Assembly (NCBI GenBank): GCA_013287335.1
Contig: JABDDZ010000001.1
Location: 3,045-67,044 of the forward strand
Source: Chlamydiota bacterium
Lineage (GTDB): Bacteria > Chlamydiota > Chlamydiia > Chlamydiales > JAAKFR01
Direction of reading: 5' to 3'
DNA length: 64,000 bases
The notes under the pieces: model-generated
What the model was told of the DNA's origin: nothing
The model's input: the letters and a program-made list of their open reading frames with translations, nothing else
Databases searched by the model: none
Shown here: positions 3,001 through 6,700 of the stretch, one piece after another
Numbering within the stretch: the first letter of the stretch is position 1
Layout of the letters: each line of letters opens with the position of its first letter
Program-made: the position numbers and the translations under genes

Positions 3001-3768
3001 TGCAAGATAGGGGTTTGCCTCTAAAAACTTTTTTTTGTCCCCCATGACAAATAAGGCAAAGAGCTCATCCATATTGAGTTCTCTATGAATGCCTGTCTCT
3101 TCGTAGAGTTCTTTCTTGCGTTGGTCCCTATCTTGGGGATCTCTTTTATTTGCAATCTCCAGGATGGCAACTTCCAGATCTTCCATTTCGGAAGAGAGGT
3201 GGTCAATTCTCTTTCCAAGGCTCTCTTCGAGCCCTGTCACATTTTTAACCGCATAGAATGTGCGTTCGCGGTTGATCTTTTGCCCCTCCTCATAGTCCTC
3301 TTGAAACTCTTCGCAATCTGCGAGGATCGCCTCTTTAAATACTTCCTCTTCGGGTAGTAGGGAAGAGGGGTCAAAGGTAAAGGAGATAACCCCCTCTTTC
3401 CCATGCTCCTCTTTAGTTAAAGGAATGAAGTGCGCCTCAAGGTGGTGAGGTAAAAATCCGGCATCGATATCCGCTACGCTTGGGATGGAAAGGGTAAGAG
3501 GAGTAACGCTCTCTTTTACCTCCTTTTCAGGCAGAATGGGTTTAGCAATGGGGGAAGAGGATATTGAGATAGCCTCCTTTTTTTCTGAGAAGATGGGAGG
3601 GCGAGATTCGCGTGCGGCGCGATTTACATCTTCTTGAATATCTGTAATAAGAGCCCGGTAGAATTTCCATCGCTCATCGCATGAATCATAAGAGGGAAGC
3701 TCCCAGCGCCAGTAGGGGTGATTTGAGGCAAAGTGTAGAAAAGTCCACTCAGGGGGGGGGCGTTGCAT
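1..3768 (-). CDS. Giant protein, distal portion (open-ended, runs off the left edge; >=1255 codons in window) with an SF2/SNF2-like two-lobe ATPase core
   Basis: My own translation of the minus-strand frame whose last codon is 3..1 shows no stop from 3783 down to 1. It is absent from the ORF track because it has no stop in the window. First ATG is at 3768..3766 (MQRPPPEWTFLHFASNHPYW...). Motifs: Walker A QLIMGGGKTAVLAL (~2620-2650), Walker B ALIDEVDLVL (~2215-2238), motif III-like MGGTPWN (~1204-1224), motif V/VI-like HTTGINIY...FQTILRHR (~650-754). Confidence 0.8.
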   Translation of the reverse strand, partial: MQRPPPEWTFLHFASNHPYWRWELPSYDSCDERWKFYRALITDIQEDVNRAARESRPPIFSEKKEAISISSSPIAKPILPEKEVKESVTPLTLSIPSVADIDAGFLPHHLEAHFIPLTKEEHGKEGVISFTFDPSSLLPEEEVFKEAILADCEEFQEDYEEGQKINRERTFYAVKNVTGLEESLGKRIDHLSSEMEDLEVAILEIANKRDPQDRDQRKKELYEETGIHRELNMDELFALFVMGDKKKFLEANPYLANEPFAVALPEEKDATIVYLYNLIGLYLTIGIYKNTLARGRDLCNKIEEIQGLSSLTRETYVQRLASELTLSTPHQIPDLLFFEFHEDLSIRTQQGGLLAKLLTLDPQTKQFQDIVIQLIMGGGKTAVLALIILKKSAREGRLSIFITPSSQYPSVKQNLRIPLKALYNQETEEIDVHRNQLNLEMILEIEKRLERTMKRGDFLIVKPETLQCLELEFLDLVYKACSSSRVTQEMLNKINGLRRILLIFRKNGDALIDEVDLVLYILQEMNFPMGDPEHILPDRIALIREIFSILAKKDAPISASERINLKKLIRLQKNQQTLLQRADFKESVCKAVAWHFTQNLSVLELKETPEHHPSFYRYISGCINSTCQKMLDCPDDEQFPIWEASLTKEDAADFAFLKYVRSLRNSPDKAKVEASHEIALVKHMMLAILPVTFEKTGGRQFGRAKSLGKPGEVVPYIAVDTPSTNKFGYHYEAVAYHFQTALLFGIEQKQLEALAAHYRAQVEYYMKRDTKPFDEILEAKEFKALTGVPLDEIDKKGKLKEATATLNANIENILLAEAETIENLVVYYPERITATGQSLIKMLSTKRAMGGTPWNLDCYDDALSSSFERDLGAEGLIADLALKRAAEDDKKDTIHEVKTGSIEEILEKVIGQHPTPDRLRSLLDSGAFFKDKNNYEVAKAIRDFLRIPVLFFTIDASKGEKTPDSLALLKLENDTPIMIGGTRADEIQKTGLTEKDYFVFADEVHTTGINIYLIPDAIGLMTIDETMLRRSYFQTILRHRDYVMHQRIEFIVPSYVIRQSIAKIDHKNPQIKILLGSLLSSIKNQAIRKSQHFNRSIKQKIDGLFREELLCEHLLKEPLTLENLKAKALPFRGVIISSSGDHPYDQFGAIEYELDTPDALKEYKNRKMAAFRKGNPPAEIALRMEVEIDNLIAKASKSPFLQTKVIETRTENLGMEVDLLSEVASQVQAETKQEIEQDLLKELQHYLGISAASLRV

Positions 3769-6700
3769 TTGGATTTTTTCCCATCATGCATGTCAAACGA
3801 AAGGCTAGCTGTTTTTTTTTCGCTGAAGAGGTCGATTTTGAAGCATTAAAAGCTCCGGGAAAATAGGCTTGTGTTGTAGATTCTGAACCAAAGGGATGAA
3901 GCGAAAGAAGATGAGGATTGTGGTAGCCTGATAGGATCTTTTTTGCCTCCTCCTTCGAACCGGGAAGAAAACTTGTCCGGTATCTCACATTCTGCCTGTT
4001 TATATCGACTTCATGTGTCTTATAAAAAGAATCAAATAGACCTGCCTGTTCATAGGGAAGTGTTGTATATCCTGAAACCGCTTCTATTCTTCGACTGTGC
4101 AGAGAATTATAGTTTTGAAGTTTAGGATAGCTGGTTTGGGTGCCTTGGGTCTGGGGAGCTATTTTTAAAAATTGTTCCTCCTCCAAAGAGAGCTCTAATC
4201 CGCTGGGAATAATGTTCCTATACCGTTTGTAGCACATCTTGGACCTTTCGCATTTTGGAGGGGGCACTTGAGAGGATTGCTTTCCCTCTATCTTCCCTTT
4301 TGCAGAGGTCTTTGCTTCCAGCAGAAGGGCATGCATTGCACAGGCGGCAGCGTGATGGGAAGCATCCCTCCCCACATTGCTGATATCAATGATCCAATGT
4401 AAAATATCCCGGCTTTTATTAGAGAGAGGATCACGATAGTCGACTTCTTTGATAAGTTCTTTAGCCTTAAGATATTTTCTCTGCGAGATTGAGATGTAAG
4501 CAAGAAAGAGGGCTCCCTCTTTGGAGAGAGGCAGAAGAGAGTCGCCCTTGATATCAAACTCTAAAAAATAATAGGATCCATCTCCCATGATCTGATCTGG
4601 AGATTTACCCTCTATGTCAAGACGGTGCAAACCGGATAGTCGTCTATACTTTGCAATAGGTTTAAGGGGGACGATGAGCTTGAGCTTTGATCCCTTTTCG
4701 TGAATGAGCAGCCGATACCCTTTGATTCCACCAAGCCACCCCTCCTCCTGTTTTGGGCTTAGAAAGTATTTTTTATTCGAGGCATAAATCAATTTATCCT
4801 CTTTGACTTCAAAGTGAAGGGGCTCATTCGTTAGGGATTTATAGCGTGTAAAAGTTAGGCTGGTAAGTTGCCCATGATGGATGTTCAGAAGAATATGCTC
4901 CAGAAGCTCAAAGTCATCGAAGGAGAGCTCTCCTTCTTCTGACTTTTTGGGGTGGCTAAGTTCTCTTGTTCTATCAAAAGCCTGTAGTTCGGCATCATAA
5001 GGCATCAGATGGCCGCTACTGTCAACCATTGCCATTTTTGCTCCGGTTGTTTGATGGATGAATAAAATGGAGGGGAGCGGATCTGCAATGGGAATCCAGC
5101 AAGTTGTACTTTTAAGCAGCGCTTCCGGAATTTCCTGATCTTTAGAGAAGATTTCAGGGGTAATAAATTGGCACCATCTACCATCGATGTTGCGTTGCAA
5201 CCCCTTTAAAAGGCTGCCATTGATCACCCTAAAATGGCCGAGTAATTCATCTTTAAAATAGATCGTGCTCCCTGATTGCAAAAAATCATAGTTTGTAGAA
5301 CCAAAGAGATGGGTAAAAAACTCCAGGCTTTCATTTTTGGTATTGCTGGAGTTGCTTCTTTTAACCCAGGTGGGGGTAGCTCCCCGTTTTAATATTCCAC
5401 TCTCATTTGTCATCTCCCCTGTAAAAATATTGAGCTGCCAGAAGGCGGCTGCAGATATTTGTGCAGTCACAATATGCGGTGTTGATGAAGTAATCTCGCA
5501 GGTTGTTGGGAGCTTGTCTACACCCATCTGCTCAACTGCGAGAGTGATGACTCTCCTAGTAAAATCTTCCGGGAGTCTCTTTAAAAAAGTCATCTGTGTT
5601 TTAAGAAAGTCCTCTATCTCTTTTTCGAGAAGAGGATTTTTCCAAGCTGCAGGAAGAGGGGTGTTGCAATAGTAGACCCATCCTAAAAAGAGCTTTTCGA
5701 GCTCTTTATCTTGCAGCTCTTCTCTTTTTTCTCGGTAGGCTAGAATCAGATGTAGGGAGGCGGCGCTCCTCTCTTCCTGCTTTAAATGGGGCTCTCCAAG
5801 GATCTTTTCAAGGAGGGGGATGGGATCGGGAAGAAGGTGAGCGTTTTCCTTATCGACAAACCGGGAGAGGCGGCAGGAGAGGCGGATAAAAAAAAGGGTG
5901 GGGAAGACAGAGGGTCTTCCCCCCGGCTGAAGGAGGAAAAAGCTATCGATCCCCATCTTTATAAAATTGCCGCATTCTTGAATAAACTCTCTTTGGGCGA
6001 GTTCCTCTTGTAAAGGGAAGAGAGGGGTTCGTAAATAGGGAAACCATTGATCCCAGAGATCTAAAAAGAGCTGGCTTTTATTATCTCCAATGTAACCCCC
6101 TCTATTTGACTCTGCAATGGAGAGGGTTTTAAAAAACTGGATTTCAAAAATCACCTGCTCGCTCTGCGACTCTAAAATTTCCATATTATTGCGGTAGTGG
6201 TAGAGAAGTTGACGGGGTTGGAGCTGCGGTTCGCAGGTTGTGAGCAGCAGTCTTTTTGGGGAGGATTTTAGGGGGAGCTCTTTTTCGATCTCTTTTTTAG
6301 CTAATATTTCACCCTCTTCAGGCTTCTCATTTATCTCCTTTATCCTGCTACTCCATTTAAGCTTTAGGAATTTCTGATATCCCGCTTCCATTTGTGGGTG
6401 CATTGCAGAAGAGTTTGGGGTAAGTTCTTTAGGCAGATCTTTTTCATGTGCTTGGTATTTTAGAGAAAAACAGGGAGTATCATCTGTAAGACTGCTAATT
6501 CTTGCAGTAATAGAAAATGGAGAGGTCGTTTTTTTATCTTTTGTTCGAAAAAGGGGATCGCCGCTAAATTGATGGGCTAAAAAGGCTGCGTAGGCAAGGG
6601 CGGGGATATGAGCGAGGCCGGCTTTTTTAAAGGGATTTGTGCTTTCCGGTGATGTTAGAGATATAAGAAATGTGGCAACTTGGAGGGTCTCTGCGCTAAA

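What the first reader, a model, noticed from the sequence alone, without database searches (positions are those of the whole stretch)
3740..3790. C9/G9 homopolymer sits exactly where two huge minus-strand ORFs meet; losing one base fuses them into a protein of >=3060 aa
With 9 C the upstream frame reads ACG CCC CCC CCC TGA (…NATPPP-stop). With 8 C it would read ACG CCC CCC CCT GAG TGG ACT… (…NATPPPEWTFLHF…) and continue straight into the 1..3768 ORF. There are three possible explanations: (a) a homopolymer sequencing or assembly error; (b) slipped-strand phase variation that switches expression of the ATPase-bearing part on or off; (c) two genuinely separate genes with a 20-nt overlap, using ATG 3768, which has only a weak upstream purine run. 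Separately, the right-hand giant (53247+) is one continuous ORF of >=3584 codons; if it proves to be a true paralog, that would favour a single-gene ancestral state here as well.
Basis: partly seen in the sequence, partly recalled or inferred. Interest (0 to 1): 0.7.

Follow-up and report, generated by a model that had tools for sequence, protein, structure and literature searches.

The report
One giant gene split by poly-C frameshift
The two huge back-to-back reading frames are one roughly 3,650-residue gene of a Chlamydia-like bacterium, cut by one extra C in a run of Cs; a second assembly of the same strain has one C fewer and an unbroken gene, so the break is either real run-length instability or a sequencing miscall, not a gene boundary.

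Summary
A C9 run on the minus strand (window 3752-3760) sits where an 1813-aa ORF ends, and a second ORF of at least 1256 aa starts 20 nt upstream of that stop. Removing one C gives a stop-free frame.

This is not two genes. Eleven closest homologues (3011-3757 aa, 35-42% identity) each align across the junction in one unbroken stretch. At least 45 of the top 59 homologues do the same.

An independent public assembly (Logan, run SRR8433345) carries the same locus with C8 and a single 3495-aa ORF reading ...NATPPPEWTF.... Over 32,440 overlapping bases the two assemblies differ only by that one C.

A second C9 run, 2.3 kb beyond the left edge of the window, breaks the same gene again with the same +1 offset. 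It cuts off a conserved C-terminal two-helix membrane anchor. The repaired gene is 3649 aa.

The most likely cause is real slipped-strand length variation at mutable poly-C tracts, either phase-variation-like or early gene decay. A homopolymer miscall is nearly as likely. A +1 ribosomal frameshift at CCC_UGA is a minor rival.

The giant ORF at the right end of the window is not a detectable paralogue. This is a known kind of event, of moderate interest.

The parts
3752..3760 (-). Poly-C tract 2 (C9 here, C8 in the Logan assembly). This is the frameshift point between the two ORFs.
   Evidence: It is the only difference in 12,656 aligned nt between the window and L007.
3749..9190 (-). Upstream ORF, 1813 aa. 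It is the N-terminal part (family profile positions 1-1623) of the giant gene and ends at TGA 3751-3749 right after the tract.
   Evidence: (identical to P0001).
1..3768 (-). Downstream ORF, in the +1 frame relative to the upstream ORF. It is 1688 aa in full (P0152) and continues past the left edge of the window. It is the ATPase-bearing part of the same gene.
3766..3768 (-). ATG that annotation uses as the start of the downstream ORF (MQRPPPEW). It is the only start codon within 176 codons and is preceded by GGGAAAAAATCCAA.
3794..3868 (-). Conserved family motif just before the tract: AYFPGAFNASKSTSSAKKKQLAFRL (family consensus FFxxAYxIAKxGSxxEKKQLAFRL).
3688..3750 (-). Conserved family motif just after the tract, read in the downstream frame: EWTFLHFASNHPYWRWELPSY (family consensus AWxYLQFALxxPxxAPxLP).
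7643..7650 (-). Poly-C tract 1 (C8), in frame in both assemblies. It encodes ..GGSPPSER..
2110..2787 (-). DUF3638 P-loop NTPase domain, with Walker A MGGGKT at 2620-2643 and Walker B IDEVD at 2215-2238. In the structure model it is the first lobe of an SF2/SecA-like two-RecA motor.

Best explanation
The two ORFs are pieces of one giant gene of about 3649 aa. Its parts, in order, are a long N-terminal region, an SF2-like DUF3638 ATPase, a proline-rich linker and a C-terminal two-helix membrane anchor. The gene is conserved as a single ORF across environmental Chlamydiae.

In this strain the gene carries three poly-C tracts in poorly conserved Pro-rich linkers. The window shows tract 2 at C9, one base longer than the in-frame C8. 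Translation therefore stops at TGA immediately after ...PPP, and the ATPase part lies in the +1 frame.

The C8 allele exists in an independent assembly of the same clone. The most likely mechanism is slipped-strand mispairing at a mutable C8/C9 tract, producing real length heterogeneity in the sequenced population. With C8 the full protein is read through. With C9 only the 1813-aa N-terminal fragment is made, plus at most weak re-initiation at ATG 3768.

A second tract, C9 in both assemblies, detaches the membrane anchor in the same way.

Shown: the tract, the frames, the single-gene ancestry, the existence of both alleles, and the second frameshift.

Inferred: that the length difference arose in the organism rather than during sequencing. 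Whether it acts as a switch (phase variation) or is the first step of gene decay is not resolved.
For: Single gene:
- The eleven closest homologues (3011-3757 aa) each align in one stretch across the junction.
- Conserved motifs lie directly on both sides of the tract. One homologue has ..APPDAW.. where this gene has ..PPPEW...
- At least 45 of the top 59 homologues cross family profile position 1623, the junction, in one aligned domain.

Both alleles exist:
- The 90%-identity cluster holds the 1813-aa and 1688-aa pieces (NCBI/JGI) and a 3495-aa protein (Logan) that is identical to the predicted fusion.
- The Logan contig L007 differs from the window by one C in 12,656 nt.
- Two more Logan contigs are 100% identical to the window over a further 19,785 nt, including many A/T runs of 8-9.
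- Only two contigs in the whole collection carry this strain's transketolase: the 78-kb source contig and the Logan contig. The two assemblies therefore probably share one read set, and the reads themselves are probably mixed at this tract.

Second tract:
- It reads GAG CCC CCC CCC TTT ACA AGT TGA. Its +1 frame encodes the conserved C-terminal membrane hairpin (E = 2e-33 against the family profile) and has no ATG.
- It is C9 in both assemblies, which argues for a real indel at a sister tract.

Precedent:
- Poly-G and poly-C frameshifts in Chlamydia pmp genes are interpreted as phase variation (PMC6740158).
Against: - No reads were available. There are only two assemblies, so there is only one observation of length difference.
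- A homopolymer of 8-9 G/C is a classic place for miscalls. All G/C runs of 8 or more in the region lie in this gene, so there is no internal G/C control.
- Tract enrichment is modest once the Pro-rich sequence is taken into account (P = 0.015-0.07).
- Orthologues have no tract at this position: GCC CCA CCC in L013 and CTA CCC GCA in L014. There is therefore no sign that the tract is maintained by selection.
- The sequencing platform of SRR8433345 is unknown.
Confidence: 0.5

Rival explanations
1. Technical artefact. The real tract is C8 and the gene is intact at this point. The ninth C in the window comes from a homopolymer miscall, from library or amplification slippage, or from an assembler or polisher choice.
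For: - The only difference between the two assemblies over 32,440 nt is the length of a G/C homopolymer.
- The C8 version gives a product that is colinear with all homologues.
- Giant homologues in other draft assemblies are often fragmented: L003 and L012 show many frame breaks.
Against: - About fifteen A/T runs of 8-9 in the overlapping 32 kb are identical between the assemblies, and gyrA, gyrB, tkt and the 3584-codon ORF are all intact. Generic homopolymer error is therefore not seen.
- The sister tract is C9 and out of frame in both assemblies. An artefact there would need a majority of reads to be wrong.
- From my own knowledge, indel error of accurate short reads at 8-9-mers is usually a few percent. 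That is too low to flip a consensus.
Confidence: 0.33
2. The DNA is uniformly C9, and the full-length protein is made by recoding. One route is a +1 ribosomal frameshift: peptidyl-tRNA-Pro slips from CCC to CCU at CCC_UGA while the ribosome pauses on Pro-Pro-Pro and the stop codon. The other route is RNA polymerase slippage on the C run. The second C9 tract would be decoded in the same way.
For: - The site reads CCC CCC CCC UGA G. CCC_UGA is the shift site used for +1 frameshifting in the Listeria phage tsh genes (PMC5009743).
- CCC-C is a known slippery context for tRNA-Pro (PMC7577736, PMC4519876).
- A +1 slip yields exactly ...PPPEW....
- Both out-of-frame tracts start at codon position 1 and need the same +1 shift.
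- The third piece of the gene has no ATG of its own.
- There is precedent for an interrupted gene rescued by polymerase slippage: Citrobacter tssM (PMC4256274).
Against: - A C8 DNA allele exists, so recoding is not needed to explain the fused product.
- The frameshift is not conserved: orthologues are in frame without a tract.
- No Shine-Dalgarno-like stimulator lies 5' of either tract.
- At the second tract the 0-frame A-site codon is UUU, not a stop.
- Bacterial transcriptional slippage is documented for A/T runs (PMC6260861), not for C runs.
Confidence: 0.08
3. A fixed, real split. The C9 state is the true genotype, and the pieces are either expressed as separate polypeptides (the downstream one from ATG 3768 by translational coupling) or are a young pseudogene. 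The Logan C8 would then be the error.
For: - An ATG lies 17 nt before the stop, in the right frame.
- Public annotation calls two proteins, P0001 and P0152.
- Related genes are also found split near their N-termini in L013 and L014.
- One homologue (L011) exists as a 1516-aa ATPase-only gene that starts about 30 profile positions before this junction.
Against: - The conserved motif begins two codons after the tract, and the split falls inside a colinear alignment.
- There are no other lesions in 10.9 kb.
- The C8 allele is seen in an independent assembly.
- The third piece has only a TTG start.
Confidence: 0.07

Closest known systems
Poly-G and poly-C tract frameshifts in Chlamydia polymorphic membrane protein genes (pmpG family; C. 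pneumoniae, C. abortus, C. psittaci), interpreted as slipped-strand phase variation (PMC6740158)
   Same: Both involve a G/C homopolymer inside a large chlamydial gene for a probable surface or host-interaction protein. In both, a one-base length change truncates the product, and frameshifted and in-frame versions occur among otherwise near-identical sequences.
   Different: - The pmp tracts are 8-24 nt, recur at the same position across many strains and paralogues, and their lengths vary widely. Here the tracts are 8-9 nt, are seen in one strain only, and are absent at the same position in orthologues.
- The protein is not an autotransporter. It is a roughly 3649-aa DUF3638 ATPase with a C-terminal membrane hairpin.
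- Two tracts in one gene would give three nested products.
Programmed +1 ribosomal frameshifting at CCC_UGA (tsh genes of Listeria phages A118, A500 and PSA) and the RF2 prfB CUU_UGA type (PMC5009743)
   Same: Both have a shift-prone P-site codon that can re-pair in the +1 frame (CCC to CCU), directly followed by a 0-frame UGA. The +1 frame carries the conserved continuation.
   Different: There is no conservation of the site among orthologues and no 5' Shine-Dalgarno-like or 3' structural stimulator. A DNA allele that removes the need for shifting exists. At the second tract there is no stop in the A site.
Citrobacter rodentium tssM, an interrupted gene rescued by transcriptional frameshifting on a homopolymer, giving two length variants (PMC4256274)
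   Same: Both are large genes interrupted at a homopolymer, with truncated and full-length variants both conceivable from one locus.
   Different: The tssM case involves a poly-A run and RNA polymerase slippage that was shown experimentally. Here the run is poly-C, and variation is seen at the DNA (assembly) level only.
DUF3638 (PF12340) giant P-loop proteins of eukaryotes and Chlamydiae
   Same: The Pfam match is well above the cut-off and Walker A and B motifs are present. There are 1192 homologues with E up to 0.001 (192 with E up to 1e-30), most of the best 150 of them 3000-4500 aa. The structure model has an SF2/SecA-like two-lobe motor.
   Different: The function of the family is unknown, and no paper in the searchable library treats the chlamydial members. 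The C-terminal membrane hairpin is a feature of the chlamydial clade.

Membership tests
Homopolymer-tract (slipped-strand) phase-variable gene | A mononucleotide tract of about 8 nt or more inside the coding sequence | tested here: met
   C9 at 3752-3760 and C8 at 7643-7650. A third tract, C9, is at L007 13934-13942.
Homopolymer-tract (slipped-strand) phase-variable gene | A one-base length change toggles between the full-length and the truncated product | tested here: met
   C8 gives a 3495-aa ORF. C9 gives an 1813-aa ORF plus a 1688-aa ORF.
Homopolymer-tract (slipped-strand) phase-variable gene | Tract-length polymorphism among otherwise identical (clonal) genomes | tested here: inconclusive
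   C8 versus C9 is the only difference in 32,440 nt between two assemblies. With a single observation and no reads, a technical origin cannot be excluded.
Homopolymer-tract (slipped-strand) phase-variable gene | The tract is maintained or over-represented (selection for mutability), for example recurring in orthologues | tested here: not met
   Orthologues have interrupted Pro codons at this position. The codon-resampling null gives P(3 or more tracts) = 0.015-0.07. One other homologue has an in-frame C9 elsewhere (L014 4140-4148).
Homopolymer-tract (slipped-strand) phase-variable gene | Reversible, high-frequency ON/OFF switching with a phenotype | not testable with these tools
   This needs cultures, amplicon sequencing and protein detection.
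Programmed +1 ribosomal frameshift | A P-site codon able to re-pair in the +1 frame, followed by a slow or stop codon in the 0 frame | tested here: met
   The site reads CCC CCC CCC UGA at tract 2. At the second C9 tract the next codon is UUU and the stop comes three codons later, so the feature is only partly met there.
Programmed +1 ribosomal frameshift | The frameshift site is conserved in orthologues | tested here: not met
   All close homologues read through in one frame, and there is no tract at this position in L013 or L014.
Programmed +1 ribosomal frameshift | A stimulatory element (a 5' Shine-Dalgarno-like sequence at the correct spacing, or a 3' structure) | tested here: not met
   The 5' flanks are AAAUGCAACG and GCAAUAGAG, and neither has a Shine-Dalgarno core at 3-6 nt. 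3' structure was not examined.
Programmed +1 ribosomal frameshift | A trans-frame protein made from a template of uniform length | not testable with these tools
   This needs proteomics or reporter assays.
DUF3638 (PF12340) P-loop NTPase family | A Pfam profile match above the gathering cut-off, with Walker A and B motifs | tested here: met
   77.3 bits against a cut-off of 31, E = 1.4e-21, covering aa 328-553 of the downstream ORF. The motifs are GGGKT and DEVD.
Chlamydial inclusion-membrane (Inc)-type proteins | A bilobed hydrophobic domain (two adjacent transmembrane segments) | tested here: met
   There are two hydrophobic peaks (Kyte-Doolittle 2.3 and 1.8 over 19 aa) at residues about 3561-3590 and 3612-3636 of the repaired protein. 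The domain is conserved in 11 homologues.
Chlamydial inclusion-membrane (Inc)-type proteins | Type III secretion and localisation to the inclusion membrane | not testable with these tools
   No experimental data are available.
Homopolymer sequencing or assembly artefact | Other homopolymers or genes in the same assembly show similar indels | tested here: not met
   A/T runs of 8-9 are identical between the assemblies, and the housekeeping genes are full length. There is no other G/C run of 8 or more to serve as a control.
Homopolymer sequencing or assembly artefact | Reads show one true length plus low-level stutter | not testable with these tools
   The reads of SRR8433345 cannot be reached from here.

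The most novel reading that the evidence does not exclude
The giant ATPase is a modular, switchable host-interaction protein. Two poly-C tracts in the same codon phase act as independent switches. They could work through tract length or through proline-stall-dependent +1 frameshifting tuned by EF-P or tRNA-Pro status. One gene would then yield three nested products: the 1813-aa N-terminal module alone, a 3495-aa soluble N-terminal-plus-ATPase form, and the 3649-aa membrane-anchored form.
Probability: 0.12. Interest if true: 0.7.

Novelty: new member of a known kind. Interest (0 to 1): 0.35.

Why it matters
Annotation:
- The public protein entries of 1813 aa and 1688 aa, and a 129-aa ORF downstream, are fragments of one roughly 3649-aa protein and should be treated as such.

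Biology:
- If the length variation is real, this would be a case of homopolymer-driven truncation outside the pmp genes and outside the genus Chlamydia.
- It would affect a conserved giant SF2-like ATPase whose C-terminal membrane anchor suggests that it sits in a membrane, possibly that of the host vacuole.
- It would also give a natural handle on which modules of this uncharacterised protein family can act alone.

If it is a miscall, the finding is an ordinary assembly error.

Tried and rejected
Searches that led nowhere:
- An exact look-up of the upstream ORF found no contig record.
- A word-indexed protein search with a 1000-aa junction-spanning query found nothing. The exhaustive HMMER search was needed.
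- The genome-contig scan found only distant Chlamydiales MAGs at 22-37% identity. It found neither the source genome nor a close relative.
- The metagenome-contig scan with a 24-mer flank gave 0 hits.
- No paper mentions SRR8433345.
- No solved structure matches by sequence.
- A look-up of the product of 50636-51661 found no record.

Ideas considered and rejected:
- The right-hand giant as a paralogue: no similarity by BLASTP or by the family profile.
- The weak RBS as evidence against a separate downstream gene: Shine-Dalgarno cores are rare genome-wide here.
- Strong tract over-representation as evidence for a contingency locus: the enrichment is only modest once the Pro-rich sequence is fixed.
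- A recurrent natural split at this same linker in homologues: L011 and L012 start near it, but L012 and L003 are broken at many places and L011 is 5'-truncated next to group II intron genes.
- A generally poor assembly: rejected, because the two assemblies are identical over 32 kb.

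
Full report
**Observation**

- On the minus strand a run of exactly nine C occupies window 3752-3760.
- The upstream frame starts at ATG 9190 and reads ACG CCC CCC CCC TGA. It ends at 3749 after 1813 codons (...NATPPP).
- The downstream frame opens only five codons before ATG 3768, after TGA at 3786-3784. 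It reads MQRPPPEWTF... and leaves the window at its left edge after 1256 codons.
- The next start codon in that frame is 176 codons further on. The two ORFs overlap by 20 nt.
- Deleting one C gives 3063 stop-free codons.
- The downstream part carries DUF3638 (77 bits against a cut-off of 31) with GGGKT and DEVD motifs.
- A G/C run of this length is expected about 0.1-0.25 times in 64 kb. The only two G/C runs of 8 or more in the window are both in this gene.

**It is one gene**

A word-indexed protein search with a fused junction query found nothing. An exhaustive HMMER search of 1.84 billion representatives found 1192 homologues.
- The eleven closest homologues (35-42% identity, 3011-3757 aa) each align in a single stretch that runs straight across the junction.
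- In a MAFFT alignment a conserved motif, FFxxAYxIAKxGSxxEKKQLAFRL, ends about 14 residues before the tract.
- A second conserved motif, (A/E)WxYLQFALxxPxxAPxLP, begins two codons after the tract, in the downstream frame.
- The closest homologue has ..APPDAW.. where the fused reading here gives ..PPPEW...
- Against a profile built from the full-length family, the junction is profile position 1623. At least 45 of the top 59 homologues cross it in one aligned domain, and eight of the eleven closest cover positions 1-4 to 3456 or beyond as one polypeptide.
- Related loci in uncultured Chlamydiales and Parachlamydiaceae MAGs carry single ORFs of 3474, 3758 and 3744 aa.

Two separate genes is therefore not the ancestral state.

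**An in-frame allele exists**

- The upstream ORF is present in the public protein collection as P0001 (identical).
- Its 90%-identity cluster has three members: P0001 (1813 aa; NCBI and JGI/IMG; on a 78-kb contig), P0152 (1688 aa; same contig; this is the complete downstream ORF), and P0151 (3495 aa; Logan assembly of run SRR8433345).
- The length fits: 3495 = 1813 + 1688 - 6.
- P0151 reads ...NATPPPEWTFLHF... and is identical to the predicted fusion at all 3063 residues encoded in the window.
- Its contig, L007, aligns to the window over 12,656 nt with no mismatch and one gap: C8 instead of C9.
- Two more Logan contigs from the same run are 100% identical to the window over a further 6,125 and 13,660 nt.
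- Only two contigs in the whole collection carry this strain's transketolase: the 78-kb one and the Logan one.

The two assemblies probably come from the same read set. That is an inference, and it would mean the reads are mixed at this tract.

**A second frameshift in the same gene**

L007 extends 2.3 kb beyond the left edge of the window.
- There the gene ends ...GAG CCC CCC CCC TTT ACA AGT TGA. This is another C9, which again starts at codon position 1.
- The +1 frame is open from that tract for another 160 codons. It encodes a proline-rich linker and then two hydrophobic helices, KITLVTVAILASLGFILMAGIGTFGIMGAH..APQF..GLISLGLVAFAIYSI.
- All eleven close homologues have this hairpin at their own C-terminus. 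The match to the family profile has E = 2e-33, and the hydropathy peaks are 2.3 and 1.8.
- This third piece has no ATG. The gene caller used a TTG.
- P0152 from the NCBI/JGI assembly ends in the same ...PPPFTS, so both assemblies have C9 at this tract.
- Repairing both tracts gives a 3649-aa protein.

Tract 1 (C8, window 7643-7650) is in frame in both assemblies.

**What the protein is**

- No Pfam family other than DUF3638 was found, and there is no sequence match in the PDB.
- An AlphaFold2 model of downstream-ORF residues 300-1100 (pLDDT 86, pTM 0.83) finds SecA, DinG and RIG-I/MDA5 as the best PDB matches (E about 1e-4, TM about 0.36).
- This indicates an SF2/SecA-like two-RecA motor with large insertions.
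- The neighbourhood is consistent with a Chlamydia-like intracellular bacterium: tandem Inc-like membrane proteins, a weak SH2 hit, and homologues only in Chlamydiales MAGs.

**Mechanism**

Four readings remain.

1. Real slipped-strand length variation at a mutable C8/C9 tract.
- For: both alleles exist in otherwise identical sequence.
- For: the sister tract is out of frame in both assemblies, which is hard to explain as a miscall.
- For: about fifteen A/T runs of 8-9 agree between the assemblies.
- For: poly-G and poly-C frameshifts are an accepted phenomenon in Chlamydia pmp genes (PMC6740158).
- Against: there are no reads and only one observation of a difference.
- Against: orthologues have no tract at this position (GCC CCA CCC in L013, CTA CCC GCA in L014).
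- Against: given the protein sequence and codon usage, 0.6-1.0 tracts are expected anyway (P(3 or more) = 0.015-0.07).
- I cannot tell an adaptive switch from early gene decay.

2. Technical miscall.
- A G/C homopolymer is the classic place for one, and there is no other G/C run of 8 or more to act as a control.
- This is nearly as likely as reading 1.

3. Recoding from a uniform C9 template.
- CCC_UGA is the +1 shift site used in Listeria phage tsh genes (PMC5009743).
- CCC-C is slippery for tRNA-Pro (PMC7577736, PMC4519876).
- A +1 slip gives exactly PPPEW, and both tracts need the same +1 shift.
- However, the site is not conserved, has no stimulator, and is made unnecessary by the C8 DNA allele.
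- Bacterial polymerase slippage is documented for A/T runs (PMC6260861).

4. A fixed split, with separate expression from ATG 3768, or a young pseudogene.
- This is possible but least supported.
- The weak-RBS argument does not help either way, because only 6 of 20 called genes here have a Shine-Dalgarno core.

The right-hand ORF (53247 onward) is continuous for 3584 codons. It shows no similarity to either left-hand ORF (BLASTP E about 0.6) or to the family profile (-3.6 bits). It is therefore not a detectable paralogue, and it is not needed for the single-gene conclusion.

**Verdict**

The event belongs to a known kind, a homopolymer frameshift in a chlamydial gene. It becomes moderately interesting because of the second tract in the same codon phase, which detaches the membrane anchor of a conserved but uncharacterised giant ATPase. 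Mapping the reads of SRR8433345 would settle the main question.

Noticed in passing
L007 13934-13942 (about 2.3 kb beyond the left edge of the window): A second C9 tract in the same gene, in the same codon phase. It puts the conserved C-terminal two-helix membrane anchor (L007 13932-14417, annotated as a 129-aa TTG-start ORF) into the +1 frame. It is C9 in both assemblies.
   Followed up: yes
L013 about 2755-2795; L014 1849-1859: Two of the closest homologous genes, on other Logan contigs, are also frameshift-split near their N-termini. One break is at an A7/A8 run (-1). The other is at CTC TTT TAG C (+1, a UUU_UAG site). The sequencing platforms are unknown, so it is unclear whether these are real or errors.
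   Followed up: partly
L014 4140-4148: Another family member (P0004, 41% identical) carries an in-frame C9 tract encoding ..SPPPH.. at a different position. Long poly-C tracts therefore recur in this gene family.
   Followed up: partly
L011 4033-7237 and 7955-12505: A 1516-aa ATPase-only homologue starts about 30 profile positions before this junction. It lies directly next to two group II intron reverse-transcriptase genes, which suggests its N-terminal half was lost through a mobile-element insertion.
   Followed up: no
window 53247-64000 (+): A second giant ORF of at least 3584 codons. It has no Pfam domain and no detectable similarity to the left-hand giant, and it continues beyond the window.
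   Followed up: partly
window 25900-30528 (-): Four tandem paralogous genes encode proteins that share the hydrophobic core LALLATAATGGAGWLGGTAFAKANL(S/T)FLHLDKLN, which looks Inc-like. The 473-aa member (29107-30528) is an internal duplication of the unit.
   Followed up: no
window 10631-11752 (-) and 9247-9999 (-): A type III polyketide synthase (chalcone/stilbene synthase domains) lies near a class I methyltransferase, with one short ORF between them, immediately upstream of the giant gene. This is an unusual pairing for a Chlamydia-like genome.
   Followed up: no
window 40405-40785 (+): A small 126-aa protein has a weak SH2-domain hit, a eukaryote-like domain. It lies directly after an OppA-like binding protein (36848-40402) that carries an unexplained N-terminal extension of about 680 aa.
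   Followed up: no
window-wide, coding regions: CCC-CCC codon pairs are nearly absent from Pro-Pro sites in the other genes (1 of 39 runs, although CCC makes up 32% of Pro codons). Three of nine Pro runs in the giant gene use them.
   Followed up: partly
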